Sequence record: NC_105512.1
Reading direction: 5' to 3' (one strand)
Length of the DNA stretch: 64,000 bases
Origin: Escherichia phage JLBYU43
In this document: positions 836 through 40,958 of the stretch, piece after piece
Position numbering within the stretch: the stretch's first letter is position 1
Layout of the letters: every line of letters begins with the position of its first letter
The notes under the pieces: model-generated
What the model was told of the DNA's origin: nothing
What the model saw: the letters and a program-made list of their open reading frames with translations, nothing else
Databases searched by the model: none
Translations under genes and position numbers: made by a program

Positions 836-864
836 ATTATACAGAGAATTAAGTGAAATAGCAA
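836..864 (-). promoter_or_regulatory. sigma70-type promoter (TTGCTA-17-TATAAT)
   Basis: Reverse complement reads TTGCTA, 17-nt spacer, TATAAT; directs minus-strand transcription into tRNA-Pro and the CAT tRNA. Confidence 0.55.
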
Positions 865-1121
865 ATGAATTTTTAATAAATTTACTTATTGCGTAGGCCA
901 CCTGGAGGGTTCAAGCCCCACGGCTGACAAAGAAGTTTGCGAGACTTCTCTTAAATGCCAGAATAGACCCGCCGATCTATCGGAACCTACATAATAAGTA
1001 AACTTTCGTTTACCTACACCTACCTGGTCGGGAGGATTTTCAGCGACTAGAACCGGCCGGAAACTCATCGCCTTGTTTACCCTGTAGTCCCACTATAAGT
1101 GACGCGACCTACAAAGATTTG

Positions 1122-1193: not shown

Positions 1194-1409
1194 ATAATGA
1201 GTCAATCTAGGTAGGACTTGAACCTACTATCACTTGTGCGGATTTACGAGAACCATTCTTTCACTCGAATCGAACGAGCTTCTACCCTCGGCAAGCTGGT
1301 GTCCCCTCTCCACCACGCTAGAATGATAATTAATGCCTGCTCCTTTGAATCAAGAAGTCCACCCCGGACTTTGGGTCTTTGCAGTACATCACGCTGCTCT
1401 GATGTTTGG

Positions 1410-1483: not shown

Positions 1484-1492
1484 ATAATTTGG

Positions 1493-1569
1493 CGGTACTA
1501 AGGGTAATCGAAACCCTACCTCTCCCGTGACAGGGGAGTACCATTACCAAGCCAGCCCCGATCGCATAA
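1493..1569 (-). tRNA. tRNA-Asp (GTC)-like element with degenerate D-arm
   Basis: Clean anticodon hairpin CTCCC-CTGTCAC-GGGAG and T-arm AGGGT-TTCGATT-ACCCT, 3' acceptor TAGTACC, discriminator G, encoded CCA. No canonical D-stem; only a weak 5' acceptor (GGGGCTG or GGTACTC) can be paired. Confidence 0.35.
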
Positions 1570-1873: not shown

Positions 1874-2029
1874 TAAATTTATATTGCTGACTAGGATTTT
1901 CACCTAGACGGAGTTAGCACCGTAGCGTGTAGCGGCATACCTCTCCAAACCGTGCCTCATCTTTCAATTACTGAGGCAGTGTTCCTACGCGTGCCTGAAC
2001 TGTTTTAACAATTCTTTCAGCAAATTGGA

Positions 2030-2102: not shown

Positions 2103-2285
2103 TTTATCTTGTTTTTCGAGATCTTCAAATTCTAGATTTATAGAATGTCCTATGGACCTAGCATAATAGCTATCTCCAGCATCAGTATCTCTTTCAATTT
2201 GGTACAACCTGTACGCAACGATCGTACCTCTTCTCCTTTTCAGGGAGATACTAATCCTTCTCAGTTAAAGTTGCATATTATCTGG

Positions 2286-2353
2286 CAGGGGTAAAGGTAT
2301 TCGAAACCTTTTCATGGGTTTTGGAGGCCCACTAGCAACCTATGCGTACCCCA
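2286..2353 (-). tRNA. tRNA-Trp (CCA), short D region
   Basis: Anticodon arm TGGGC-CTCCAAA-ACCCA and 3' end TACCCCTGCCA resemble the E. coli tRNA-Trp as recalled; T-arm AAGGT-TTCGAAT-ACCTT; only about 67 nt with a reduced D-arm. Confidence 0.5.
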
Positions 2354-30025: not shown

Positions 30026-30730
30026 ATGGCTGGTTCTCGTAGAAAGAAACACATTCATGAAATCCCGGATGAAGTCTTTAAAAAGGTTATAGAGCATCTG
30101 GAGAACGGCGGTACTAAGAAAGCAGCATGTGAAATGCTCGGCGTATCATCCAATCCAACTATGGAAAGGATGATTGAGGAATGGCAAGACCGCCAAATTC
30201 AAGTTGCCGAGATGAAGAAAAAGAAACGTGGCACACTCATTGAAGGCATTGAGTTAGCTAACGTTATTGAGCAGTATTTATCTGGTGATTCTTTTGAAGA
30301 AATTGCCGATCGTAATTATCGTTCTGTAGCAATGGTTAAATCTGTTTTGGAACGCTATGGTGCTCTGCTTCGTTTGAACGATATTGTAGATCCATTGAAT
30401 CCTCCAATTATTCCTGATGATGCTGTAGCAGAAGAATTTGAGGTTGGAGAACTAGTTTGGGTTCCTGGATACCAGTGTATTGGTGAAATCAAAAAAGCAA
30501 TGGATAATCCTGTTGGTTGTTACCGTGTATGGCTTCTATCAGAAGGCAAACAACAGAACGTCCATTATATGAATTACGAGCTGGCTTCTGTTAAACATCT
30601 GGAAAAGCTAGGGGTTGATGTAAAATCTCTAGGGTATAAATGGACTCGTGAAGAAATTATTACGTTGATTAATGAAGCTGTTAAGGCTGCCCTGAAACTT
30701 GATAAAGAAAAAGGAAAACGCCGTGAGTAA
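30026..30730 (+). CDS. putative HTH DNA-binding protein (234 aa)
   Basis: N-terminal helix-turn-helix-like segment (GGTKKAACEMLGVSSN); first gene after the PN25-like promoter. Confidence 0.55.
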   Translation: MAGSRRKKHIHEIPDEVFKKVIEHLENGGTKKAACEMLGVSSNPTMERMIEEWQDRQIQVAEMKKKKRGTLIEGIELANVIEQYLSGDSFEEIADRNYRSVAMVKSVLERYGALLRLNDIVDPLNPPIIPDDAVAEEFEVGELVWVPGYQCIGEIKKAMDNPVGCYRVWLLSEGKQQNVHYMNYELASVKHLEKLGVDVKSLGYKWTREEIITLINEAVKAALKLDKEKGKRRE

Positions 30731-30959
30731 GCTAACTGATTTGCTTAAAGATGGGGATGTAAAATATCTTCAACGGGATAGCTGGGAGAATAATAAAGAG
30801 TATACTGTACTGTTAAAATTTGACGTAGACAGCAATACTGTACGTCAATACGTGTGGATGCCTCCAGATACTACGCTGCTGCCTAGTGATGAAGAGGTTG
30901 AATTAACCCTAGACGAAGCTCTAGCGGATGATTGGGAGATTGTTGAGCTAGATGTGTAG
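30723..30959 (+). CDS. hypothetical acidic protein (78 aa, GTG start proposed)
   Basis: ORF-track ORF 30699-30959; in-frame GTG at 30723 preceded by AAAAGGAAAA is a likelier start. Confidence 0.4.
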   Translation: MSKLTDLLKDGDVKYLQRDSWENNKEYTVLLKFDVDSNTVRQYVWMPPDTTLLPSDEEVELTLDEALADDWEIVELDV

Positions 30960-30979
30960 CAATTACCGAAAAATTTCAG

Positions 30980-31008
30980 TTGCTTAATCCTATAATTCTT
31001 GATATAAT
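30980..31008 (+). promoter_or_regulatory. sigma70-type promoter, T5 PD/E20-like
   Basis: TTGCTTAATCCTATAATTCTTGATATAATATTCTCATAGTTTGAA, near-identical to the T5 D/E20 promoter as recalled. Confidence 0.7.
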
Positions 31009-31065
31009 ATTCTCATAGTTTGAAAGAACTATTCTGTTTAATTCTTAATTAAGGAAATATAAAAT

Positions 31066-31476
31066 ATGACTACTCCAACTCAGTGGACTGATGAACTGTT
31101 CGAAAAAATGTCTTCCGAATACGTTGCTCGTATGGAGCAATTCCCAGAGGATGAACGTCCGGGTGTTAGCATGGAAATTGTTAGCGAAATTGCCCAGGAA
31201 AATGGTGTAACTCCGAACGGTTTTCGTATGAAGCTGACTAAAGCAGGTTTGTATATCAAGAAAGCTGCTGGCTCTGCTTCTAAATCTAGTGCATCTACTG
31301 GAGAAAAAGCTTCTGGTGGTTCTCGCACTTCTAAAGCTCAAGCCCATGCCGACCTTCGTTCAGCATTCTCTGATGCTGGCCTAGCACCAGATTTTCTGGA
31401 TGATGCAATTATTGACAAACTGACCGGTAAAGCGGCTGCTCATCTGGCAGAAGCAATCCGAGCTATCACTAAGTAA
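31066..31476 (+). CDS. hypothetical protein, host-like codon usage (136 aa)
   Basis: ORF-track ORF with E. coli-optimal codons and an Ala/Ser/Lys-rich central region. Confidence 0.6.
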   Translation: MTTPTQWTDELFEKMSSEYVARMEQFPEDERPGVSMEIVSEIAQENGVTPNGFRMKLTKAGLYIKKAAGSASKSSASTGEKASGGSRTSKAQAHADLRSAFSDAGLAPDFLDDAIIDKLTGKAAAHLAEAIRAITK

Positions 31477-31512
31477 TTTTTAGATAAATCCACCAACAAA
31501 AGGAACACAGTT

Positions 31513-31809
31513 ATGACCAAAGCTGAAATTATCGCACAATGTGAAAAATTTGGTGAGTTTTATCTTCATTACGAGAAACTTCGTCAGAAAGGAACCACGT
31601 ACCTTCAGGGTACGATGGAATTTGATCCAGCCCAAGATAAATATCTGGCTGAGCGTATTAAACGTGAACGTATTCGTAAAGCGAAAGATGATGAGATCCT
31701 TGTCTTCTCTCGTACTAATGATAGCTTCCGTTTTATTCCTGTCGAGAAAGTCCGTCGTGTGACTAGCCTCCAATCAGAGTTAGATCGTGCTTCTCCAGTA
31801 GGCCGATAA
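31513..31809 (+). CDS. hypothetical protein (98 aa)
   Basis: ORF-track ORF with AAAGGAACA leader. Confidence 0.5.
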   Translation: MTKAEIIAQCEKFGEFYLHYEKLRQKGTTYLQGTMEFDPAQDKYLAERIKRERIRKAKDDEILVFSRTNDSFRFIPVEKVRRVTSLQSELDRASPVGR

Positions 31810-31859
31810 GAAACCAATTAGCCCCTATATGGGGCTTTTTGTGTATTTGGGATATGTAA

Positions 31860-32168
31860 ATGAGCGAACAGGTAAATCAAAACTATGAAGGACACGTTGA
31901 TGACCAGTCCATCATACTTTGGGAGAAGGAGGGAGAACAAGTAAGATTAACAGTATCTGAATTTCGTGGGAATCTATACATGGGTATTCGTTACTGGCTT
32001 CTTGATATTAATGATGAATGGTTTCCAACGAAATCTGGCTTCTCTTTTCCTTACACCCTAGAAACAACATCACAGCTTTTCTATGCGTTTACACAGATTC
32101 TTAGTGAATCTGAGGTTTTACATGAAGTACAGAAACGAGCTGAAGAACTCAAAGCCAAGAATGCCTAG
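31860..32168 (+). CDS. hypothetical protein (102 aa)
   Basis: ORF-track ORF. Confidence 0.5.
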   Translation: MSEQVNQNYEGHVDDQSIILWEKEGEQVRLTVSEFRGNLYMGIRYWLLDINDEWFPTKSGFSFPYTLETTSQLFYAFTQILSESEVLHEVQKRAEELKAKNA

Positions 32169-32195
32169 TTCTTGGCTTTTTCTTTATAAATGTAT

Positions 32196-32224
32196 TTGCT
32201 TTCAACTCAGTTTTATTATATAAT
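32196..32224 (+). promoter_or_regulatory. sigma70-type promoter (TTGCTT-17-TATAAT)
   Basis: TTGCTT, TCAACTCAGTTTTATTA, TATAAT, leader ATAAATTGATGAGAG. Confidence 0.65.
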
Positions 32225-32255
32225 ATTTATATAAATTGATGAGAGATATAAATAA

Positions 32256-33227
32256 ATGACTAATGTAAAAGACTTTATTAAACGTTGCCAAGAAGCGTAT
32301 TACCAGGGAATGTCTTTAATCTCTGACGAAGAATATGATCGTCTGATTAAAAGATTTCCGTTAGAAGAAGAGATCGGGCCTAAGGGCGATATTCCACATC
32401 TGTATCGTATGTATTCTTTACAGAAAGTTTACTTTGATCGTGGTGATAAAGCTCCGTTTACTACCCTTGATGATGTAGAAACTGATAAGTTAGATGGTTG
32501 TGCAATTTCTCTACTGTATATCGACGGAACGTTTGTTCAAGCATTAACTCGTGGTAATGGTATTCTAGGAAATGATGTCACAAGCAACGTTAGATTGCTG
32601 AACATCCCGAAAAAGATTTCCCAAAAAGTACCAACTCAAATCACTGGTGAAGTTCTTATCACTAAAGAAGTAGAAAACAAACGTAACTACGCTTCCGGTG
32701 CTATTAACTTAAAAGAAGAAGATGACTTCATCGAACGTATTGCAGAAGGTGGCTTGATTTTTGTAGCGTACGGTATTCAGTGTTCAGAGGATTCTGTAGG
32801 TATTACAGGTTCTTACTTAGATGATATGTCTTGGTTGGCTAACGAAGATTTTATCACTGTAATGAACATTAAAAACTACTTTAATTGGTATCCAACGGAT
32901 GGTAAAGTAGTTCGTATTAATGACAACAACAAATTCTTCCGTGAAGGTTGGACAAATAAACATCCTCGTGGTGCTTATGCAATCAAACAAGATGAAGAAG
33001 GCGAAATTACAACTCTTCTCAAAGTTGAATGGCAGGTAGGGGCTTCTGGTAAAGTAACTCCAGTTGGTTATTTCGAACCGGTAATTATTGATGATGCTAC
33101 AATTGTTAAGGCGACTCTTAATAACGTTGATTATATTAACTCTCTTGATCTAGAGATCGGTTGCCAGATTCGAGTAATTCGTGCTGGTGGTGTAATCCCG
33201 TGTATAGTAGAGCGAGTATACGATTAA
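32256..33227 (+). CDS. ligA: NAD-dependent DNA ligase, N-terminal half (adenylation and OB domains)
   Basis: SDEEYDRL (domain Ia), KLDGCAISLLY (KxDG adenylation lysine), TRGNGILGNDVTSNVR and IRAGGVIP match LigA motifs. Confidence 0.8.
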   Translation: MTNVKDFIKRCQEAYYQGMSLISDEEYDRLIKRFPLEEEIGPKGDIPHLYRMYSLQKVYFDRGDKAPFTTLDDVETDKLDGCAISLLYIDGTFVQALTRGNGILGNDVTSNVRLLNIPKKISQKVPTQITGEVLITKEVENKRNYASGAINLKEEDDFIERIAEGGLIFVAYGIQCSEDSVGITGSYLDDMSWLANEDFITVMNIKNYFNWYPTDGKVVRINDNNKFFREGWTNKHPRGAYAIKQDEEGEITTLLKVEWQVGASGKVTPVGYFEPVIIDDATIVKATLNNVDYINSLDLEIGCQIRVIRAGGVIPCIVERVYD

Positions 33228-33277
33228 TACATAACCCTTTGCTACCCATCTACCATATCGGAATTATAAAGTGGTTA

Positions 33278-33306
33278 TTGACATTTTCGCCGCTTAGGTA
33301 TATACT
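33278..33306 (+). promoter_or_regulatory. sigma70-type promoter (TTGACA-17-TATACT)
   Basis: TTGACA, 17 nt, TATACT inside the 200-bp gap between the two ligase ORFs. Confidence 0.5.
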
Positions 33307-33370
33307 ATTATCATTCAGTTGAGGGATAGAAAGTTATGGCGAGGGTAAGCAAAGTTAGTTAAAATTGTAG

Positions 33371-33399
33371 TTGCTAAATGCTTAAATACTTGCTATAAT
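33371..33399 (+). promoter_or_regulatory. sigma70-type promoter (TTGCTA-17-TATAAT)
   Basis: TTGCTA, AATGCTTAAATACTTGC, TATAAT, leader ATAAATTGATAAGGAAG. Confidence 0.65.
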
Positions 33400-33429
33400 A
33401 TTTATATAAATTGATAAGGAAGAAATTTG

Positions 33430-34209
33430 ATGAAAATCGAAATTCCAACACAATGTCCCTCTTGTGGTTCTAAGCTAGATCTTGTCAACGGACAATTATT
33501 CTGTCGGAATAAGTCCAACTGTCCAGCGCAATCAAGTAAGTTAATTGAGAACTTCTGTACAAAAATGAAGTTAAAGGGCTTTGGTCCAAAAACTATTGAG
33601 AAGCTGGAGCTGACGAAGATTTCAGAACTATTTTACCTAACCGAAGAAGATTTGGTTAGAGCCGTGGGTAGCAAGGTTGCCGCTAAGTTAATTAGCGAAT
33701 TAAATACTAAAGTTCGCGGAGACATTGACTTTGGTTCAGTTCTCGGTTCTTTAGGAATCCCTCTAATCGGAGAGGTTGCAGCAAAGAAATTATCCCAAAA
33801 TTGCACTAGCTTCCACGATGTGAAGGCTGACGGCAAGGCTGGAGAAAATTATAAAGCCTGGCTAAATTCCCCACAAGGCAAGGATGTTATCGAATTACCG
33901 TGGAAATTTTCAACTGGTATTAGGGGCACTAAAGCTAATATCATCATTACAGATGAATTAGTTGCCCAGCCAAATGGAATCGCGGTATGTATTACCGGAT
34001 CTTTGCAAGATTTTGCAAATCGAACGGATGCAACAAACTATTTAGAAAGTCTAGGGTATACGGTTAAGAAATCAGTTACTAAAGACGTCAAATACCTAAT
34101 CTGTGAGGATGAATCAAAACGTTCTTCCTCATCTTATAAGAAAGCCGAAACGAATGGGATAGAAATCCTGTCGATTAAAGAACTATTGGAGAAAAATAAT
34201 AATGTCTAA
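33430..34209 (+). CDS. ligA: NAD-dependent DNA ligase, C-terminal half (Zn finger, HhH, BRCT)
   Basis: Zinc-finger CPSCGS...C..C, helix-hairpin-helix region and BRCT-like IAVCITGSL; ATG at 33430 preferred over the TTG at 33427. Confidence 0.75.
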   Translation: MKIEIPTQCPSCGSKLDLVNGQLFCRNKSNCPAQSSKLIENFCTKMKLKGFGPKTIEKLELTKISELFYLTEEDLVRAVGSKVAAKLISELNTKVRGDIDFGSVLGSLGIPLIGEVAAKKLSQNCTSFHDVKADGKAGENYKAWLNSPQGKDVIELPWKFSTGIRGTKANIIITDELVAQPNGIAVCITGSLQDFANRTDATNYLESLGYTVKKSVTKDVKYLICEDESKRSSSSYKKAETNGIEILSIKELLEKNNNV

Positions 34210-34969
34210 ACTGAACTGGAACGTAGAAGGTGTAACCGAGTCTCTGAAAGCAAAAGCCACTGCTCTGGGTGTTGCTGTAATCTCTCAAGAACAAGTAGCT
34301 GCTATCGCTGCTGAACTGGCCGCTGAAACTGGCAAAGATGTTACCGCTCGCTCTGTTGGCTCTAAACTGCGTAAAGAAGGTTTTGAAGTACAGAAAGCTA
34401 ATGAAGTACAGAAATCTCCGTGGACTCCTGAGCAGGAAGCTGAACTGGTTGATTTCCTGAACGCTCATGCTGGTCAGTATACCTATGCTGAAATCGCTGC
34501 TGCTGTAGCTGGTGGTCAGTTCGGTGCTAAGCAGGTACAGGGTAAGATTCTGAGCCTGGAAATGACCGCTTCTGTTAAGCCAACCGAAAAAGCTGCCGCT
34601 GTTCGTTCCTTCACTCCGGATGAAGAAACTGATTTTGTTAATCAGGTTGTTGCTGGTGCTACTATTGAAGCTATCGCTGCTCACTTCGGTCGTAATATCA
34701 AGCAGATCCGTGGTAAAGCTCTGAGCCTGCTTCGTGAAGGTCGTATCGCTGCTATGCCGGTACAGGAAACCTCAAGTGCTAAAACTCGTGAAGATCTGTT
34801 AGAAGGTCTGGATTTGGTTAACATGACTGTTGCTGAGATCGCCGAGAAAACTGGTAAGTCTGAGCGCGGTGTTAAATCTATGCTGTCTCGTCGTGGTCTG
34901 GTTGCTAAGGACTATGATGGTGCCGCTAAGCGTGCTAAACTGGATGCAAAAGCTGCGGCTGCTGAATAA
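34202..34969 (+). CDS. repeat-containing protein with four HTH-like repeats, host-like codon usage (possible T5 D5-like DNA-binding protein)
   Basis: Four tandem units sharing the pattern [hydrophobic]AEIAxxxG....R.VKS.LSRRGL; Ala-rich; E. coli-optimal codons. D5 identity is a guess from size and position. Confidence 0.6.
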   Translation: MSKLNWNVEGVTESLKAKATALGVAVISQEQVAAIAAELAAETGKDVTARSVGSKLRKEGFEVQKANEVQKSPWTPEQEAELVDFLNAHAGQYTYAEIAAAVAGGQFGAKQVQGKILSLEMTASVKPTEKAAAVRSFTPDEETDFVNQVVAGATIEAIAAHFGRNIKQIRGKALSLLREGRIAAMPVQETSSAKTREDLLEGLDLVNMTVAEIAEKTGKSERGVKSMLSRRGLVAKDYDGAAKRAKLDAKAAAAE

Positions 34970-34986
34970 TCTGGTAAATTAAACCT

Positions 34987-35018
34987 AAGGGGAGGGGGCT
35001 ATGCTCCTTCCCCTTTTT
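34987..35018 (+). terminator. intrinsic terminator
   Basis: AAGGGGAGG/CCTTCCCCTT stem followed by TTTTT, directly 3' of CDS 34202-34969. Confidence 0.65.
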
Positions 35019-35051
35019 GCATTTAGAAGGCACGAAAGCGTGCAAAGGAGA

Positions 35052-36524
35052 ATGACCTTGTTTAACGTGCAAGCTGTAGTGTTGAAGATGCTTCTAGCTT
35101 CTGAACAGAAGCAAATAGCATTGGAAACATTCTCAAAACTGCATAAAGATCATTTTAATGACGCTTTCTCCTCAATTTACCAAGCCGTCCAGAATTATTA
35201 TAAAAAATATAACACAATGCCGTCCATTGACGCACTGATGCTTGAGGCTAATAGGAACGCCCGTCTTTCTCAAGCTCTAGTCGTCTTAGCTAACACTCAA
35301 ATTCCAGAAGTGAGCATGGAACAGGCACTTGAAGTCCTAGAAGCAGAATATACACAGGATTTATTCCTGAAGCTTCTAGAAACAGACGTGCTTCAAGATT
35401 TAACAATGCTGGATCAGGGAGAAATTCTCAACCGAGTTGCCTCCCTTCACTTAAAATTAGAAGAGAAAGTAACGAATACTGGAAAAGTATTCAACGCAGA
35501 TAACATGCGTATTTTCCAGAGAGAAGAAGATACCAAACTGAACTTAATCGCTCTTGGTATTTGTAATGAGTTCGACGCTCAAATTGGTTTAGCTCGCACA
35601 GAAACGTTACTGCTTGGTGGTTGGCGTGGTACTGGTAAATCCATTATCTGTTCAAACATACAGGTTCAGCAATATTTGAATGGAGATATTGCTCCATACT
35701 TCTCAATTGAGATGAAAGAACATGAAGTATTTAGACGTAATCTAGCCATGTTAGCTGGTGTATCAGCATTAGCAATGCGTAATAACACTCTTGAAGGTGC
35801 TGCTCTGTTGAGATTAGCCAGAACTAGGGCTAGGATGTTTAATGGTGGTGAAGAGCTTTTCGATAACTTCGTTAAGCAATACACTATGGCTAAAATGAGT
35901 GACTTCTATGATATGGAAAGTAAACTCCTTGAAGGCTATGAGCTTCACACTCCTATGATCATCGTTTACGATCCTGAACTGTCTATTACGACTGTTGACG
36001 TAGAATTAAATAAACTAGTTGCTAAATATGGTGATAAGGTTACTGTAGCTCTTCTAGACTATATTAACCAAACAAGACTTCCAGATTCAAAGACCATTGA
36101 CATGTATGACTGGAAAGAACAGATGGTCGTTAGTTCATCTTTCAAATCTATCTGCCAGAAACATAACGTGGCTGGTGTAGCTCCTTACCAGATCGATCAA
36201 GATGGTAGAACACGTATGTCAAAGGGGATTCTTGATTCCGCAGACATGGCTGCTAATCTTAATGCTGCAAAAGCTGATAATGGTCAAGGTGCTATTATGT
36301 TTGACTTCGTTAAGACTCGTTCTTCTGATAGCGTGAAGTTTATGCCTAAAATGAACTGGGAAACTCTGCGAATGGATAACACTACCAACCTAGCAATGGA
36401 AGATATATCTCAAATGGAAGCTGAGTTCGTTATCCCTATTGAGAAGGATAAGCCGGCTCAACCTAAACGTGCTAAGAAAGACAAAACTGAAAATTCAACA
36501 GGTGAACAGGCCAGCGATATATGA
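35052..36524 (+). CDS. DnaB-like replicative helicase
   Basis: RecA-like core with Walker A GGWRGTGKS; start set at the ATG after AAAGGAGA RBS (MTLFNVQ...). The ORF-track start lies inside the terminator. Confidence 0.7.
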   Translation: MTLFNVQAVVLKMLLASEQKQIALETFSKLHKDHFNDAFSSIYQAVQNYYKKYNTMPSIDALMLEANRNARLSQALVVLANTQIPEVSMEQALEVLEAEYTQDLFLKLLETDVLQDLTMLDQGEILNRVASLHLKLEEKVTNTGKVFNADNMRIFQREEDTKLNLIALGICNEFDAQIGLARTETLLLGGWRGTGKSIICSNIQVQQYLNGDIAPYFSIEMKEHEVFRRNLAMLAGVSALAMRNNTLEGAALLRLARTRARMFNGGEELFDNFVKQYTMAKMSDFYDMESKLLEGYELHTPMIIVYDPELSITTVDVELNKLVAKYGDKVTVALLDYINQTRLPDSKTIDMYDWKEQMVVSSSFKSICQKHNVAGVAPYQIDQDGRTRMSKGILDSADMAANLNAAKADNGQGAIMFDFVKTRSSDSVKFMPKMNWETLRMDNTTNLAMEDISQMEAEFVIPIEKDKPAQPKRAKKDKTENSTGEQASDI

Positions 36525-37054
36525 TAACACAGGAAAGGCTAAAAGAGTTATTTGATTACTCCCCAGAAACTGGGGAGTTTACTAGAAAAGTATCTAGAGG
36601 CAATCAGAAAGCTGGGAGTATAGTAAATAGAAAAGACTCTAATGGCTATATAATTATTGGCATAGATGGCAAGGATTACAAAGCTCATCGTATGGCTTTT
36701 CTATTTATGGAGAATACACTGCCTGAAAAAGTAGACCATGTAAACAGAATACCATTCGATAACAGATGGTGTAATCTAAGAGATGCCACAGCCCAGGAAA
36801 ATAGTAGAAATAAAACAGCATGTAGTAAATCTGGATACTTAGGAGTTGCTTGGGATAAGAAAAATCAAAAATGGGAAGTTAGAGTCAGGGATTATTTAGG
36901 AAATAAAAAATATTTCGGAAGATTTAACTATCTGGATTTACAATCAGCTGTTGAGATAGCTAATAAGGCCAGACTACAGTTACACGGAGAACGTGCTGTT
37001 ATAGAGATTTTTGATATATATAATTATCCTGCACTAGAGGAGCTAAACTCATGA
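36521..37054 (+). CDS. HNH homing endonuclease
   Basis: HNH motifs (HRMAFLFM..VDHVNRIPFDNRWCNLR); paralog of CDS 12302-12850; wedged between helicase and primase with overlapping start and stop. Confidence 0.75.
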   Translation: MITQERLKELFDYSPETGEFTRKVSRGNQKAGSIVNRKDSNGYIIIGIDGKDYKAHRMAFLFMENTLPEKVDHVNRIPFDNRWCNLRDATAQENSRNKTACSKSGYLGVAWDKKNQKWEVRVRDYLGNKKYFGRFNYLDLQSAVEIANKARLQLHGERAVIEIFDIYNYPALEELNS

Positions 37055-37941
37055 GTAGAATAACAGAACTACTTGATCTGAAAGGCATCGAATATAAAGA
37101 TACAGGTGGTGATATTCTTATATGCTGTCTCAATCCAGATCACGATGATAAACACCCAAGTTTGCGTATTGATCCTGAAACAGGCATTATGCACTGCTTG
37201 AGTTGTGGCTTCGGTAAAGGTATACCGAGCATTTACCATTATTTTAATGAGACTCAGTACCGACAGTCTCCAAGACTATCGCAGGTACGTAAAAAGATTT
37301 CAGAGATTAGGAATGGATCTACGAATCTTGCAATTCCTGAATCTGCTTACCTTTTCGAAGGTGATTTCCGAGGTATAAGTTCTAAGACCTTGAAGAAATA
37401 TTTTGCTTTCCAACACCAAGCAGACTGGGAAGGCAGAATTGTATTTCCAATCACAGATGCTGTTGGACGTAATATCCTATTTTTGGGTCGTTCTATAAAC
37501 AGTTCTGCCCCTCCTAAATACTTAGTAAAACCAAAACAAGTTTCACCACCGATTTTCCCTGTACGATATAATACTCCAGTTCTTATCTTAGTTGAGGGTA
37601 TCTTTGATATGCTGAACCTAGAGGATAATGGTATAGACTATGCTTCTTGCTGCTTTGGTACACATCAGTTCACTTCAGATAACATTGCAGATAAGTTCAG
37701 TCCTTATATTATTGCTGGTGTAAAAGTTGTTGTTATCTTACTAGATAATGATGCTTCTGGTAATAAAGCTGCACAAGCGTTGGCCAAGTTAATTCGTACA
37801 AAAACGCGTTTAACACCTGTAATTGCTAACTTTCTCCTACCTGAAGGCAAAGATCCAGGTGATTTAAACAAAGATGAAATTGATATGTTAGCAAAACGTA
37901 TTGAAATTTTAGTTGCTGAATCGCTTAAAGATTTGGTATAA
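37051..37941 (+). CDS. DNA primase (zinc-binding plus Toprim)
   Basis: Zinc-binding CCLNPDHDDKHPSLRID...HCLSCG and Toprim-like LVEGIFDMLNL ... LLDNDASGNKA. Confidence 0.75.
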   Translation: MSRITELLDLKGIEYKDTGGDILICCLNPDHDDKHPSLRIDPETGIMHCLSCGFGKGIPSIYHYFNETQYRQSPRLSQVRKKISEIRNGSTNLAIPESAYLFEGDFRGISSKTLKKYFAFQHQADWEGRIVFPITDAVGRNILFLGRSINSSAPPKYLVKPKQVSPPIFPVRYNTPVLILVEGIFDMLNLEDNGIDYASCCFGTHQFTSDNIADKFSPYIIAGVKVVVILLDNDASGNKAAQALAKLIRTKTRLTPVIANFLLPEGKDPGDLNKDEIDMLAKRIEILVAESLKDLV

Positions 37942-37967
37942 TAGTCCTAAATAACTGAGGAGCTACT

Positions 37968-38297
37968 ATGGAATATGTATATATTTATGAGGATGTTCCA
38001 GTGTATGATAGTATAACACGCAAAGAGGTTAAACTAGAGCGGTTTACAACACTGGAGTCCCTTAACAAACGAAAGAATTTCCATTTATTTGGTGATCCTA
38101 AATTACCTGCATCTTATATTTACTTTAAAGTAAAAGATACAGGTCAAGAGGTATACCTAACATATGATTGGGCTGTTGTAGAAAATACTGAGCAATCTAT
38201 GAAAGCGCTAGATGCTTTTCTGCGTATAGATGAAGAATTTCGGGTACTAGAAAAGCATCGCAATGAAATGCGTAAATTACTTCACACCTATAAATAG
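37968..38297 (+). CDS. hypothetical protein (109 aa)
   Basis: ORF-track ORF with GAGGAG RBS. Confidence 0.5.
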   Translation: MEYVYIYEDVPVYDSITRKEVKLERFTTLESLNKRKNFHLFGDPKLPASYIYFKVKDTGQEVYLTYDWAVVENTEQSMKALDAFLRIDEEFRVLEKHRNEMRKLLHTYK

Positions 38298-38300
38298 TAT

Positions 38301-38329
38301 TTGCTATTATCCCAATATTTTGATATAAT
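38301..38329 (+). promoter_or_regulatory. sigma70-type promoter (TTGCTA-17-TATAAT)
   Basis: TTGCTA, TTATCCCAATATTTTGA, TATAAT upstream of the polymerase gene. Confidence 0.65.
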
Positions 38330-38390
38330 ATATTGGTAAGTTAGAGAAGAAACACTGAAGTTATACTTACTTACCAAGAGGAGATTAAAT

Positions 38391-40958
38391 TTGAAAATCG
38401 CAGTAGTTGATAAAGCTCTAAATAACACTCGTTATGATAAACATTTCCAGCTATACGGCGAGGAAGTTGATGTATTCCATATGTGTAACGAGAAGTTATC
38501 TGGTCGTTTGCTTAAAAAGCACATTACTATTGGAACACCAGAAAACCCATTTGATCCGAATGATTATGATTTTGTTATACTAGTAGGTGCTGAACCTTTC
38601 CTGTATTTCGCAGGTAAGAAAGGCATTGGTGACTATACTGGTAAACGTGTAGAGTATAATGGATATGCTAACTGGATTGCGAGTATCAGCCCAGCCCAGT
38701 TACACTTTAAGCCCGAAATGAAACCAGTTTTTGATGCAACAGTAGATAATATCCACGATATTATCAATGGTCGTGAGAAGATTGCAAAAGCTGGTGATTA
38801 CCGCCCTATTACTGACCCTGATGAGGCAGAAGAATATATCAAGATGGTGTATAATATGGTTATCGGACCTGTAGCATTCGACTCCGAAACCTCAGCACTA
38901 TACTGTCGAGATGGTTATCTGCTTGGTGTTTCTATGTCTCACCAAGAGTATCAGGGTGTGTATATCGATTCTGATTGTCTCACAGAGGTTGCAGTATATT
39001 ATCTCCAGAAAATTCTGGATAGTGAAAACCACACTATTGTTTTTCACAACCTGAAGTTTGATATGCACTTTTATAAGTACCATCTGGGACTTACTTTTGA
39101 TAAAGCACATAAAGAACGCAGGCTTCATGATACTATGTTGCAGCATTATGTTCTAGATGAGCGTCGTGGTACTCATGGCTTGAAATCTCTAGCAATGAAG
39201 TATACCGATATGGGTGACTATGACTTTGAACTAGATAAGTTCAAGGAGGATTACTACAAAGCACATAAAATCAAGAAAGAAGATTTCACTTATGATTTAA
39301 TTCCGTTTGATATTATGTGGCCTTACGCTGCAAAAGATACCGATGCCACCATACGTTTGCACAACTTCTTCTTACCAAAAATTGAGAAGAATGAAAAACT
39401 TTGCAGTCTGTATTATGATGTTCTAATGCCTGGTTGTGTATTCCTCCAGCGTGTTGAGGATCGTGGTGTACCAATTTCTATTGATCGCCTGAAAGAAGCA
39501 CAGTACCAGTTAACTCATAATCTGAATAAAGCTCGTGAAAAGCTGTATACTTACCCAGAAGTCGTTCAGCTAGAGAAAGATCAGAACGAAGCGTTTAACC
39601 CAAACTCTGTTAAACAACTCCGTGTTCTTCTGTTTGATTATGTTGGGTTAACTCCAACAGGTAAATTGACAGATACTGGAGCGGACTCTACAGATGCAGA
39701 AGCTCTGAACGAACTGTCTACGCAGCATCCAATTGCTAAAACTCTGCTAGAGATTCGTAAGCTGACTAAGCTGATCTCTACTTACGTTGAGAAGATTCTT
39801 CTGAGCATTGATGCTGATGGTTGCATTCGTACTGGCTTCCACGAACACATGACTACTTCTGGTCGTCTGAGTTCTTCTGGTAAACTGAACCTGCAACAGT
39901 TACCTCGTGATGAATCTATTATCAAGGGTTGTGTAGTAGCTCCTCCCGGGTATCGTGTAATCGCATGGGACTTAACAACTGCGGAAGTTTATTATGCTGC
40001 TGTTCTATCTGGTGATAGAAATATGCAACAAGTATTTATCAACATGAGAAATGAACCAGATAAATACCCTGACTTCCACTCTAACATCGCACACATGGTA
40101 TTTAAGCTCCAATGCGAACCTCGTGATGTTAAAAAGTTATTCCCAGCCCTGCGTCAAGCAGCTAAAGCAATCACTTTTGGTATTTTGTATGGTTCTGGCC
40201 CGGCTAAAGTAGCTCATTCTGTTAATGAGGCTCTTTTGGAACAAGCTGCTAAGACAGGCGAACCGTTTGTAGAGTGTACTGTTGCAGATGCTAAAGAGTA
40301 CATTGAAACTTACTTCGGCCAGTTCCCGCAGCTTAAGCGTTGGATTGATAAGTGCCACGATCAGATCAAGAATCATGGATTTATCTATAGTCACTTTGGT
40401 CGTAAACGTCGTCTGCATAATATCCACTCTGAAGACCGTGGTGTTCAGGGTGAAGAAATCCGTTCTGGATTTAACGCAATCATTCAGTCTGCTTCTTCTG
40501 ATAGTCTCCTTTTAGGTGCTGTAGATGCAGATAATGAGATCATTTCTCTTGGCCTAGAACAAGAGATGAAGATTGTTATGCTGGTTCACGACTCAGTAGT
40601 TGCTATTGTTCGTGAGGATTTGATCGACCAATACAATGAAATCCTGATTCGTAATATCCAAAAAGACCGTGGTATCAGTATTCCTGGCTGTCCGATTGGT
40701 ATTGATTCTGATTCTGAAGCTGGAGGTTCTCGTGACTACTCTTGTGGTAAGATGAAGAAGCAGCACCCATCAATCGCTTGTATTGATGATGATGAATATA
40801 CTCGTTATGTCAAGGGTGTATTACTTGATGCAGAATTCGAGTATAAGAAATTAGCTGCAATGGATAAAGAGCATCCAGATCATAGCAAATACAAGGATGA
40901 TAAGTTTATTGCTGTATGTAAAGATTTGGATAATGTGAGAAGGATTCTCGGTGCTTGA
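38391..40958 (+). CDS. family A DNA polymerase with 3'-5' exonuclease (T5-type, TTG start)
   Basis: 855 aa; exonuclease motif VAFDSETSAL; Pol A motifs (RQAAKAITFGILYG, HDS). N-terminus MKIAVVDKALNN matches the T5 polymerase as recalled; AGAGGAGA RBS before the TTG. Confidence 0.9.
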   Translation: MKIAVVDKALNNTRYDKHFQLYGEEVDVFHMCNEKLSGRLLKKHITIGTPENPFDPNDYDFVILVGAEPFLYFAGKKGIGDYTGKRVEYNGYANWIASISPAQLHFKPEMKPVFDATVDNIHDIINGREKIAKAGDYRPITDPDEAEEYIKMVYNMVIGPVAFDSETSALYCRDGYLLGVSMSHQEYQGVYIDSDCLTEVAVYYLQKILDSENHTIVFHNLKFDMHFYKYHLGLTFDKAHKERRLHDTMLQHYVLDERRGTHGLKSLAMKYTDMGDYDFELDKFKEDYYKAHKIKKEDFTYDLIPFDIMWPYAAKDTDATIRLHNFFLPKIEKNEKLCSLYYDVLMPGCVFLQRVEDRGVPISIDRLKEAQYQLTHNLNKAREKLYTYPEVVQLEKDQNEAFNPNSVKQLRVLLFDYVGLTPTGKLTDTGADSTDAEALNELSTQHPIAKTLLEIRKLTKLISTYVEKILLSIDADGCIRTGFHEHMTTSGRLSSSGKLNLQQLPRDESIIKGCVVAPPGYRVIAWDLTTAEVYYAAVLSGDRNMQQVFINMRNEPDKYPDFHSNIAHMVFKLQCEPRDVKKLFPALRQAAKAITFGILYGSGPAKVAHSVNEALLEQAAKTGEPFVECTVADAKEYIETYFGQFPQLKRWIDKCHDQIKNHGFIYSHFGRKRRLHNIHSEDRGVQGEEIRSGFNAIIQSASSDSLLLGAVDADNEIISLGLEQEMKIVMLVHDSVVAIVREDLIDQYNEILIRNIQKDRGISIPGCPIGIDSDSEAGGSRDYSCGKMKKQHPSIACIDDDEYTRYVKGVLLDAEFEYKKLAAMDKEHPDHSKYKDDKFIAVCKDLDNVRRILGA

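What the first reader, a model, noticed from the sequence alone, without database searches (positions are those of the whole stretch)
1194..1409. Orphan T-arm-like hairpins between tRNA-Gly and tRNA-Lys
Two minus-strand hairpins have T-loop consensus (GTAGG-TTCAAGT-CCTAC near 1211-1227 and GCTCG-TTCGATT-CGAGT near 1263-1279), but no complementary acceptor strands or anticodon arms could be found around them. They may be tRNA gene remnants, processing signals within the polycistronic tRNA transcript, or parts of a structured RNA. A similar orphan hairpin occurs at 1891-1907.
Basis: seen in the sequence. Interest (0 to 1): 0.4.

Follow-up and report, generated by a model that had tools for sequence, protein, structure and literature searches.

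The report
Known T5 tRNA-like RNA2 gene
The two "orphan" hairpins are the two T-arms of one 125-base tRNA-shaped RNA gene ("RNA2", already annotated in phages T5 and BF23 but of unknown function), in which the anticodon loop is replaced by a conserved 53-base insert.

Summary
Both minus-strand hairpins sit at the stated coordinates and fit the T-arm consensus, and chance would give about 0.07 such hairpins per window. No canonical tRNA is called in 1194-1409. The claim that no acceptor strand exists is wrong. The 3' hairpin (1211-1227) is followed directly by CTAGATT(G), which pairs with (C)ATTCTAG about 100 nt upstream (1318-1325).

The 125-nt unit at 1201-1325 (minus strand) is the homolog of "rna2 / RNA2, tRNA-like RNA with unknown functions", annotated in GenBank for T5, BF23 and phage 5. 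It has an acceptor stem, a D-arm, an anticodon-like stem and a T-arm. Where the anticodon loop should be there is a 53-nt insert carrying the second T-arm (1263-1279) and a near-invariant 26-nt stretch. Across 27 distinct homologs, 24 of 27 base pairs show compensatory changes. Reduced versions occur in T4-like phages. Rfam has no family for it.

The rest of the interval (1326-1406) is a separate, optional 81-nt module. The third hairpin (1891-1907) is the T-like arm of another, unannotated tRNA-like RNA of about 140 nt.

The function is unknown. My best guess is a tRNA mimic processed by the tRNA-maturation machinery. The gene is already known, so interest is moderate to low.

The parts
1201..1325 (-). 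RNA2 gene: 125-nt tRNA-like RNA, homolog of T5/BF23/phage 5 'rna2'
   Evidence: T5 rna2 (AY692264 32962-33086) aligns to window 1325-1201 at 88% identity. BF23 and phage 5 annotate the homologous stretch as misc_RNA RNA2, 'tRNA-like RNA with unknown functions'. Covariance model R1 gives one strong hit in the window, 1201-1325(-), at 109 bits.
1318..1324 (-). Acceptor-stem 5' strand ATTCTAG. C1325 can add an eighth pair with G1203.
   Evidence: Pairs with 1204-1210. All 7 pairs have compensatory changes and 97.6% of cells are paired.
1297..1315 (-). D-arm TGGTG-GAGAGGGGA-CACCA, with the loop carrying the conserved GG
   Evidence: All 5 pairs are compensated and 100% of cells are paired.
1292..1296 (-). 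Anticodon-like stem, 5' strand GCTTG
   Evidence: Pairs with 1232-1236 (CAAGT). All 5 pairs are compensated and 99.3% of cells are paired.
1237..1291 (-). Conserved 53-nt insert (55 nt counted between the stem strands) replacing the anticodon loop. It comprises J1 CCGAGGGTAGAA, T-arm 1, and the 26-nt core GAAAGAATGGTTCTCGTAAATCCGCA.
   Evidence: This is the most conserved part of the family and is near-invariant from T5-like to T4-like phages. A possible inner helix GGGY/RUCC has one covarying pair (CG:16, UA:8, 3 exceptions).
1263..1279 (-). T-arm 1 (flagged hairpin GCTCG-TTCGATT-CGAGT), inside the insert
   Evidence: 4 of 5 pairs are compensated and 97.8% of cells are paired. The loop is a canonical TTCRANY loop.
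1232..1236 (-). Anticodon-like stem, 3' strand CAAGT
1211..1227 (-). T-arm 2 (flagged hairpin GTAGG-TTCAAGT-CCTAC), in the true T-arm position next to the acceptor 3' strand
   Evidence: 3 of 5 pairs are compensated and 2 are invariant G-C.
1204..1210 (-). Acceptor-stem 3' strand CTAGATT, followed by G1203 and AC. No CCA is encoded.
   Evidence: Sequence read.
1326..1406 (-). Module A: an optional 81-nt conserved spacer RNA between the tRNA-Lys 3' CCA and RNA2. It is not tRNA-like.
   Evidence: Absent in T5, BF23 and some Epseptimavirus-like contigs (L015, L022), where RNA2 follows other sequence. Found in 132 phage records at 96-100% identity, including Klebsiella Sugarlandvirus in a different tRNA context. 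Two hairpins are compensated in phage Eos. The fold is no better than shuffles, z = -0.5.
1194..1200 (-). 7-nt spacer TCATTAT between RNA2 and tRNA-Gly(GCC)
1884..2023 (-). Second tRNA-like RNA of about 140 nt, holding the third flagged hairpin (1891-1907) as its T-like arm. The closing stem is 2023-2017 with 1890-1884.
   Evidence: The MFE fold has z = -3.6. RNAalifold finds 41 pairs, 6 of them compensated, including one in the closing stem. There is no feature at the homologous place in AJ604531.

Best explanation
The two hairpins are the two T-arms of a single gene, the homolog of bacteriophage T5 'RNA2' (window 1201-1325, minus strand).

Shown:
- The RNA folds as a tRNA cloverleaf scaffold: a 7-bp acceptor stem with an optional eighth pair between the base just 5' of the stem and the base at the discriminator position, a D-arm with a GG loop, a 5-bp anticodon-like stem, a short variable loop, and a canonical T-arm directly abutting the acceptor 3' strand.
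- The 7-nt anticodon loop is replaced by a conserved 53-nt insert. The insert contains a second canonical T-arm, a GGG-containing strand and a near-invariant 26-nt segment.
- It therefore cannot decode.
- It lies on the same strand as the tRNA genes, between tRNA-Lys and tRNA-Gly, with no promoter of its own.

Inferred:
- It is made as part of the polycistronic tRNA transcript.
- It is cut out by the tRNA-maturation machinery: RNase P at its 5' end, RNase P cleavage of the downstream tRNA-Gly plus 3' trimming at its 3' end, and possibly CCA addition, since only A-C is encoded after the stem.
- It accumulates as a stable tRNA-shaped RNA.

Most likely role (weak inference, about 0.3): a tRNA mimic that uses its tRNA body to enter tRNA pathways and its conserved insert, a possible second 'elbow', to engage a tRNA-binding host or phage factor. 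It is an accessory function, not needed for growth on laboratory E. coli.
For: Identity:
- GenBank annotation of the homologous stretch as RNA2 in BF23, phage 5 and T5.
- 88% identity over the full 125 nt to T5 rna2.
- Homology starts and stops at the RNA2 borders while the flanks differ between phages.

Structure:
- On 27 distinct homologs, 98.6% of cells are paired, 24 of 27 pairs have compensatory changes, 0 of 500 shuffles reach the observed values, and slid controls give 27-43% pairing.
- RNAalifold recovers the same five helices.
- Stems are completely rewritten yet complementary in Slocum, L009, L052 and KKP_3711.

tRNA-likeness of the scaffold:
- Model R1 aligns ordinary tRNAs end to end at 15-26 bits.
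- Replacing the insert by a 7-nt loop makes ARAGORN call a tRNA in 6 of 7 lineages.

Not a decoding tRNA: no tRNA call by ARAGORN or Rfam.

Co-transcription: no promoter-like site in 1194-1409, and the gene sits on the same strand inside tRNA clusters in T5-like phages, Slocum, Acj133, L043 and L054.

Selection on the insert: it is the most conserved part, shared with T4-like phages that lack the acceptor and D stems.

Dispensability: the viable T5Mos deletion 30661-38625 (PMC11464382) spans the rna2 coordinates 32962-33086.
Against: - There are no expression, end-mapping or binding data for this window. Mature ends and stability are taken from the T5/BF23 annotation, whose experimental basis I could not read.
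- The alignment used for pair counts was made by hand with the structure in mind, which inflates pairing percentages. Compensated stems in divergent sequences are nevertheless unambiguous.
- This phage's clade has a U-U mismatch in the acceptor stem.
- The T4-like versions lack an acceptor stem, so RNase P or CCA processing cannot be a universal feature of the family.
- The fold of the insert is unresolved. Two mutually exclusive helices each have thin support.
- The single-sequence fold is no more stable than shuffles, z = -0.1.
- The mimic or decoy role has no direct support. No partner protein is conserved nearby.
Confidence: 0.8

Rival explanations
1. Decaying remnants of former tRNA genes: pseudogene debris left by recombination or homing-endonuclease activity in the tRNA cluster, with no function.
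For: The cluster does contain such scars. The neighbouring tRNA-Asp at 1486-1562 is a chimera of two alleles with a broken acceptor stem. HNH endonuclease genes interrupt the cluster in relatives. In phage KKP_3711 an annotation pipeline called part of RNA2 a 70-nt tRNA-Arg.
Against: 24 of 27 pairs are kept by compensatory substitutions across Demerecviridae genera and unrelated large phages. The non-tRNA insert is the most conserved segment. Homology ends exactly at the RNA borders. Debris would not show this pattern.
Confidence: 0.04
2. A pure processing signal: a tRNA-shaped 'punctuation mark' whose only role is to direct RNase P and 3' trimming in the polycistronic transcript, with the excised RNA being a by-product.
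For: The acceptor/T-arm unit is the minimal RNase P substrate (established knowledge). In contig L009 the element sits between small ORFs with no tRNA within 5 kb, as a punctuation element would. No promoter lies in the interval.
Against: In this window it is flanked by real tRNAs on both sides, which already provide cleavage sites. Punctuation needs no near-invariant 53-nt insert with a second T-arm. The T4-like versions keep the insert but lose the acceptor stem, the part needed for RNase P.
Confidence: 0.12
3. An interrupted but functional tRNA gene: the 53-nt insert is an intron removed after transcription to give a decoding tRNA.
For: The insert sits exactly where tRNA introns sit. The scaffold is called a tRNA once the insert is replaced by a loop.
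Against: No anticodon-loop residues remain at the stem ends: there is no U33-NNN-R37 context next to GCTTG / CAAGT. 53 nt is far too short for a group I intron, and Rfam finds no intron family. ARAGORN's intron mode finds nothing. The stem/loop layout is not a bulge-helix-bulge motif, and bacteria lack that splicing enzyme (established knowledge). Intron sequences are usually less conserved than exons, whereas here it is the reverse.
Confidence: 0.03
4. Chance hairpins in AT-rich spacer DNA.
For: Single-sequence folding of 1194-1409 and of RNA2 is no better than shuffled sequence.
Against: The expected number of consensus T-arm hairpins per window is 0.07. There are hundreds of homologs with covariation.
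Confidence: 0.01

Closest known systems
Bacteriophage T5 / BF23 / phage 5 'RNA2' (misc_RNA rna2; GenBank AY692264 32962-33086, AJ604530 5701-5825, AJ604531 5936-6060)
   Same: Same gene. It shows 88-90% identity over the full length, the same 125-nt extent, the same strand and place in the tRNA cluster (next to tRNA-Gly in BF23), and the same tRNA-like description.
   Different: This phage's clade has a 1-nt longer D-loop, a U-U mismatch in the acceptor stem, and an extra 81-nt module (A) between the upstream tRNA-Lys and RNA2. T5 and BF23 have an ORF and unrelated spacer upstream instead.
Canonical tRNA (Rfam RF00005)
   Same: Acceptor stem, D-arm with GG, 5-bp anticodon-position stem, short variable loop, and a canonical T-arm with G53-C61 and a TTCRANY loop. 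It is located and oriented like the tRNA genes.
   Different: It has no anticodon loop, which is replaced by a 53-nt structured insert with a second T-arm. No CCA is encoded. It is not detected by ARAGORN or the Rfam tRNA model even at E<=10.
Phage T4 species 1 and species 2 RNAs (rnaC, rnaD)
   Same: Small stable RNAs of unknown function, encoded in a phage tRNA cluster and co-processed with tRNAs. rnaC also ends in a T-arm plus acceptor-like pairing.
   Different: There is no specific homology. The RNA2 model scores rnaC at 24.5 bits, like any tRNA, and does not hit rnaD. The conserved insert is absent from T4. True RNA2 relatives in T4-like phages (Acj133, L043, L054) are a different element.
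tmRNA, YrlA and mascRNA-type tRNA mimics
   Same: They share the principle of a tRNA-like body, giving access to tRNA-processing and tRNA-binding factors, joined to a non-tRNA functional module in place of the anticodon region.
   Different: No sequence or model match: only weak Rfam hits over neighbouring tRNAs, and no tmRNA by ARAGORN. There is no tag ORF and no Ro-binding stem. RNA2 keeps a full D-arm and anticodon-position stem.

Membership tests
T5-type RNA2 (tRNA-like RNA annotated in T5, BF23, phage 5) | Full-length sequence homology to annotated rna2 | tested here: met
   88% identity over 124-125 nt to T5 rna2. 89-90% identity to BF23 and phage 5 rna2. Model R1 scores the window at 109 bits against 111-114 bits for T5 and BF23.
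T5-type RNA2 (tRNA-like RNA annotated in T5, BF23, phage 5) | [quoted passage not shown] | tested here: met
   Between tRNA-Lys (1407-1483) and tRNA-Gly (1120-1193), all on the minus strand. BF23 has the same RNA2-tRNA-Gly adjacency.
T5-type RNA2 (tRNA-like RNA annotated in T5, BF23, phage 5) | tRNA-like secondary structure conserved by covariation | tested here: met
   Five helices, 24 of 27 pairs compensated. RNAalifold agrees.
T5-type RNA2 (tRNA-like RNA annotated in T5, BF23, phage 5) | Expressed as a discrete RNA in infected cells | not testable with these tools
   No expression data are available. The basis of the GenBank annotation could not be read in the held literature.
Canonical tRNA | Detected by tRNA covariance or heuristic models | tested here: not met
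   No call in 1194-1409 by ARAGORN, Rfam at gathering score or Rfam at E<=10.
Canonical tRNA | 7-nt anticodon loop on a 5-bp stem | tested here: not met
   The 5-bp stem GCTTG/CAAGT encloses 55 nt (1237-1291) instead of 7.
Canonical tRNA | Acceptor stem contiguous with a T-arm carrying the T-loop consensus, plus a D-arm with GG | tested here: met
   The scaffold is called a tRNA by ARAGORN once the insert is replaced by a loop, in 6 of 7 lineages.
Canonical tRNA | 3' CCA and aminoacylation | not testable with these tools
   CCA is not encoded: the stem is followed by G-A-C-T. Post-transcriptional CCA addition or charging cannot be assessed.
tRNA pseudogene / remnant | Loss of pairing and absence of selective constraint | tested here: not met
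   98.6% of cells are paired with compensatory changes, and the insert is near-invariant.
T4 species 1/2 RNAs (rnaC, rnaD) | Homology to T4 rnaC or rnaD | tested here: not met
   Model R1 scores rnaC at 24.5 bits, within the range of ordinary tRNAs, and gives no rnaD hit. blastn found no T4 match.
tmRNA | tRNA-like domain plus tag-peptide reading frame | tested here: not met
   ARAGORN finds no tmRNA. Rfam gives only a 14.7-bit permuted-tmRNA hit over tRNA-Gly.
Intron-containing tRNA (group I or bulge-helix-bulge) | Recognisable intron and intact anticodon loop after removal | tested here: not met
   No intron family is found by Rfam. ARAGORN's intron mode is negative. No anticodon-loop residues flank the insert.

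The most novel reading that the evidence does not exclude
RNA2 may define a phage RNA family that spans virus families: T5-like Demerecviridae, several T4-like Straboviridae-type genomes and uncultured large phages. In this reading a tRNA body carries a second T-loop/GG 'elbow' module in place of the anticodon, and acts as a tRNA mimic. It would bind or titrate a tRNA-recognising factor, for example a host anticodon nuclease or other tRNA-targeting defence, or a tRNA processing or modification enzyme. That would add an RNA decoy to the tRNA-based counter-defence repertoire already shown for T5 tRNA-Lys and tRNA-Tyr. The reduced T4-like form, which lacks the acceptor and D stems, would mark the insert plus T-arm 2 as the functional core.
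Probability: 0.2. Interest if true: 0.7.

Novelty: already known. Interest (0 to 1): 0.33.

Why it matters
As a scan finding it is explained: an already annotated gene that most modern T5-like genome records, and Rfam, omit.

It matters modestly for three reasons.
- Automated tRNA and ncRNA tools leave several real, conserved RNA genes in T5-like tRNA clusters uncalled, or miscall fragments as tRNAs, as with the 'tRNA-Arg' in KKP_3711.
- The covariation-backed model given here (tRNA scaffold, insert, second T-arm) and the relatives in T4-like phages would allow a proper RNA family to be built.
- Phage tRNA clusters are now known to counter tRNA-targeting defences. A conserved non-decoding tRNA look-alike in the same operon is therefore an obvious and cheap candidate to test.

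Tried and rejected
- **Canonical tRNA hidden in the gap.** ARAGORN, Rfam at gathering score and Rfam at E<=10 were all negative. ARAGORN's intron mode was also negative.
- **Any Rfam family.** None matches in 1194-1409.
- **Single-sequence folding as evidence.** It was uninformative, with z = +0.96 for the whole gap and -0.1 for RNA2.
- **Own promoter in module A.** None was found.
- **Homology to T4 rnaC or rnaD.** Rejected.
- **Fold of the insert.** I compared five candidate helices. J1 CGAGGG x UUCUCG, the AGAA-UGG-UUCU hairpin and J1b AGAA x UUCU are broken in divergent lineages. GGGY x RUCC has one covarying pair with 3 exceptions. AUGGU x ACCAU is supported only by contig L043. The fold remains unresolved.
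- **Antisense target.** The conserved insert has no match in 5,426 E. coli genomes at E<=10, and there is no second or antisense copy in the window.
- **Conserved protein neighbour.** None was found. Contexts differ between phages.
- **Pattern scans.** L036-L039, L041, L042 and L050 were chance matches with no flanking similarity.
- **Literature.** Five full-text searches found no paper describing RNA2. The original Russian-group papers are not in the held library.
- **MAFFT alignment.** It misregistered the divergent 5' parts. I replaced it with a hand alignment padded with N.

Full report
**What the window is.** The 600-2700 stretch matches about 530 T5-like phage genomes (Demerecviridae; Salmonella, Escherichia and Klebsiella phages) at 90-99% identity. 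The interval 1194-1409 is 100% identical to E. coli phage vB_EcoS_Ace. All tRNA genes lie on the minus strand. ARAGORN calls tRNA-Gly(GCC) at 1120-1193 and tRNA-Lys(CTT) at 1407-1483, with nothing between them. Rfam finds nothing there either, at gathering thresholds or at E<=10 with permissive filters.

**Checking the observation.** I counted hairpins with a 5-bp stem, a closing G-C pair and a TTCRANY loop across both strands of the 64-kb window. There are 13, all on the minus strand inside the tRNA region. Eleven are the T-arms of called tRNAs and two are the flagged hairpins. Block-shuffled sequence gives a mean of 0.07 and a maximum of 1. They are not chance. The third hairpin (1891-1907) has the loop TGAAAAT, which is not the consensus.

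**What it is.** A sensitive blastn of 1194-1409 against phage records found 502 matches. In two curated records of the 'tRNA gene region', from phage BF23 (AJ604530) and Salmonella phage 5 (AJ604531), the stretch homologous to window 1196-1325 is annotated as misc_RNA 'rna2 / RNA2: tRNA-like RNA with unknown functions'. The T5 st0 genome (AY692264) annotates rna2 at 32962-33086. That 125-nt sequence aligns to window 1325-1201 at 88% identity. Homology between phages starts and ends at the borders of this unit, and the flanks differ between phages:
- an ORF and unrelated spacer in T5 and BF23;
- a tRNA 3' end only 6-7 nt upstream in contigs L015 and L022;
- an extra 81-nt module in this window.

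**Structure.** Divergent homologs make the fold plain. They came from pattern scans of viral, metagenome and genome collections with the conserved core, and include:
- Serratia phage Slocum;
- Enterobacter phage KKP_3711;
- a 164-kb IMG/VR contig (L009);
- a soil metagenome contig (L052);
- three T4-like genomes: Acinetobacter phage 133, L043, and L054, a 167-kb contig binned as 'bacterium'.

The strand immediately 3' of hairpin 1211-1227 (CTAGATT, 1210-1204) pairs with ATTCTAG at 1324-1318. C1325 and G1203 can add an eighth pair. Then come a D-arm (TGGTG-GAGAGGGGA-CACCA, 1315-1297) and a 5-bp stem in the anticodon-stem position (GCTTG 1296-1292 with CAAGT 1236-1232). A 4-nt variable loop and T-arm 2 (1227-1211) complete the cloverleaf.

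In place of the anticodon loop lie 55 nt (1291-1237):
- a GGG-containing strand (CCGAGGGTAGAA);
- T-arm 1, the other flagged hairpin (1279-1263);
- the segment GAAAGAATGGTTCNCGTAAATCCGCA, which is nearly invariant from T5-like to T4-like phages.

In Slocum, L009, L052 and KKP_3711 every stem is rewritten yet stays complementary. MAFFT misregistered the divergent 5' parts. I therefore built a hand alignment of 27 distinct homologs, padded with N so that the tool kept it intact.

| Measure | Result |
|---|---|
| Cells forming standard pairs | 98.6% |
| Pairs with compensatory double changes | 24 of 27 |
| Shuffles reaching the observed values | 0 of 500 |
| Pairing when 3' partners are slid by 1-3 columns | 27-43% |

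The hand alignment was made with the structure in mind, which inflates percentages. The rewritten stems do not depend on alignment choices, though. RNAalifold recovers the same five helices on its own.

**The scaffold is tRNA-like; the RNA is not a tRNA.** A covariance model built from the alignment (R1) finds exactly one strong hit in the window, 1201-1325(-), at 109 bits. It aligns ordinary tRNAs end to end at 15-26 bits. I replaced the insert by a generic 7-nt anticodon loop in silico. ARAGORN then called the scaffold a tRNA in 6 of 7 lineages, including this window. With the insert in place, neither the normal nor the intron mode calls anything. No anticodon-loop residues flank the insert, and 53 nt is too short for a group I intron. 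Rfam sees no intron either, so the intron reading is rejected.

**The insert.** Its internal fold is unresolved. RNAalifold proposes a 4-bp helix GGGY/RUCC enclosing T-arm 1 and a mini-hairpin. Its fourth pair covaries between the two large T5-like clades (C-G in 16 sequences, U-A in 8) but fails in 3 lineages. A competing AUGGU/ACCAU hairpin is supported only by three concerted changes in L043. The RNA has two canonical T-loops and three conserved GG-containing strands: the D-loop, J1 and the core UGG. A second T-loop/GG 'elbow' is therefore plausible but not shown.

The T4-like versions keep the anticodon-position stem (6 bp), the insert and T-arm 2. They have only a GGUGGAAGG strand in place of the D-arm and no acceptor stem. 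In phage 133 the element is squeezed between a tRNA-Gly 3' end and a tRNA-Cys 5' end. The conserved core of the family is thus the insert plus T-arm 2, not the acceptor end.

**Mechanism.**
- Shown: gene identity, fold, tRNA-like scaffold, lack of an anticodon loop, same-strand position in tRNA clusters, and no promoter-like site in the interval. The nearest promoter-like site on the minus strand is downstream at 864-836, TTGCTA-17-TATAAT, matching the annotated promoter P13a.
- Inferred from established tRNA biology: the acceptor/T-arm unit should make RNA2 a substrate for RNase P and 3' trimming within the polycistronic transcript. CCA is not encoded, only A-C follows the stem, so CCA addition is possible.
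- Weakly inferred: a tRNA-mimic role through the conserved insert.
- Supporting an accessory role: the viable T5Mos deletion 30661-38625 reported in PMC11464382 spans the rna2 coordinates. The coordinate systems agree for the tRNA-Pro/fMet/Lys/Val fragment 31885-32870.

I found no extended complementarity of the insert to E. coli genomes or to the rest of the window. No protein neighbour is conserved.

**The rest of the interval.** Window 1326-1406 ('module A') is a separate unit.
- It is absent upstream of RNA2 in T5, BF23, L015 and L022.
- It is present at 96-100% identity in 132 records, including Klebsiella Sugarlandvirus phages. There it sits between a different CCA-ending tRNA-like element and tRNA-Phe.
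- In phage Eos, two of its hairpins keep pairing through double changes: GCAG/CUGC becomes CGAG/CUCG, and two pairs change in CUUCUU.../...AAGGAG.
- It has no acceptor-type closure, is not tRNA-like, and folds no better than shuffles.

Its nature is open.

**The third hairpin.** Hairpin 1891-1907 is followed directly by UCAGCAA (1890-1884), which pairs with UUGCUGA (2023-2017). The enclosed RNA of about 140 nt folds much better than shuffles, z = -3.6. It is 89-98% conserved in T5-like phages, KKP_3711 and a Klebsiella phage. It shows 6 compensated pairs, including G-C to A-U in the closing stem. The homologous place in AJ604531 carries no annotation. It is a second tRNA-like RNA, built on the same principle but unrelated in sequence to RNA2.

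**Comparison with known families and novelty.** The feature is a member of the already annotated T5 RNA2 family. All testable defining features are met. It is not a canonical tRNA, a pseudogene remnant, a tmRNA, an intron-bearing tRNA or a relative of T4 rnaC/rnaD. The gene is known, but it is absent from Rfam and from most T5-like genome annotations. At least once a fragment of it has been miscalled as tRNA-Arg, in KKP_3711. The parts likely to be new are the covariation-backed model, the relatives in T4-like phages and the reduced architecture. I could not read the original literature, so I do not claim them as discoveries.

**Verdict.** Interest is about 0.33.

Noticed in passing
window 1326-1406 (-): 'Module A' is an 81-nt element that starts right after the tRNA-Lys CCA and ends at the RNA2 5' end. 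It is optional among Epseptimavirus-like phages. It is 96-100% identical in 132 records, including Klebsiella Sugarlandvirus, where it sits in a different tRNA context. Two hairpins are compensated in phage Eos. It is not tRNA-like and its function is unknown.
   Followed up: partly
window 1884-2023 (-): A second, unannotated tRNA-like RNA of about 140 nt lies between tRNA-Cys and tRNA-Asn. It has a 7-bp closing stem directly next to the T-like hairpin 1891-1907 (loop UGAAAAU). Its fold has z = -3.6 and 6 pairs are compensated. It is 89-98% conserved across T5-like, Enterobacter and Klebsiella phages.
   Followed up: partly
window 1486-1562 (-): The tRNA-Asp(GTC) here is a chimera. Its 5' half is the BF23/KKP_3711 allele and its 3' half is the PMBT22/atrejo allele, which in those phages abuts an HNH endonuclease ORF. 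The crossover lies in the shared anticodon arm. The hybrid acceptor stem (GCGATCG vs TAGTACC) is broken. It scores 25.6 bits, below the Rfam threshold, and ARAGORN does not call it. Only 17 of 413 matching records cover it in full. It is probably a pseudogene left by gene conversion.
   Followed up: partly
window 2199-2272 (-) and 2283-2353 (-): Two more tRNA-like genes are missed by ARAGORN and by Rfam even at E<=10. One is 97.5% identical to the gene annotated tRNA-Phe in phage atrejo and has a non-canonical T-loop, ATCGTTG. The other is the homolog of the 71-nt BF23 'tRNAW', with an odd D region and the anticodon-loop sequence CCTCCAAAA.
   Followed up: partly
window 890-992 (-) and 836-864 (-): A homolog of T5 'RNAIV' (stable RNA of unknown function, 94% identical) lies between tRNA-Gly and a strong sigma-70-type promoter, TTGCTA-17-TATAAT, which matches the annotated T5/BF23 promoter P13a upstream of tRNA-Pro/tRNA-fMet. 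The 127 nt between RNAIV and tRNA-Gly (993-1119) were not examined.
   Followed up: no
L007 1284-1369 (-) (Klebsiella phage Shaphc-TDM-1124-4): An uncalled CCA-ending element, GGGACTT...AAGTTCCACCA, has acceptor-type end pairing but no canonical T-arm. It sits between tRNA-Lys and module A and may be another non-canonical tRNA-like RNA.
   Followed up: no
L054 7053-7127 and L043 6751-6823: The T4-like contigs that carry the reduced RNA2-like element also encode a tRNA with a CUA (amber-reading) anticodon. In L054 it lies immediately upstream of the RNA2-like element.
   Followed up: no
L006 1251-1320 (Enterobacter phage KKP_3711, PP579741): The GenBank record annotates a 70-nt 'tRNA-Arg(ccg)' that is in fact the 5' part of the RNA2 homolog: acceptor 5' strand, D-arm and T-arm 1. 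This is a likely pipeline miscall.
   Followed up: yes
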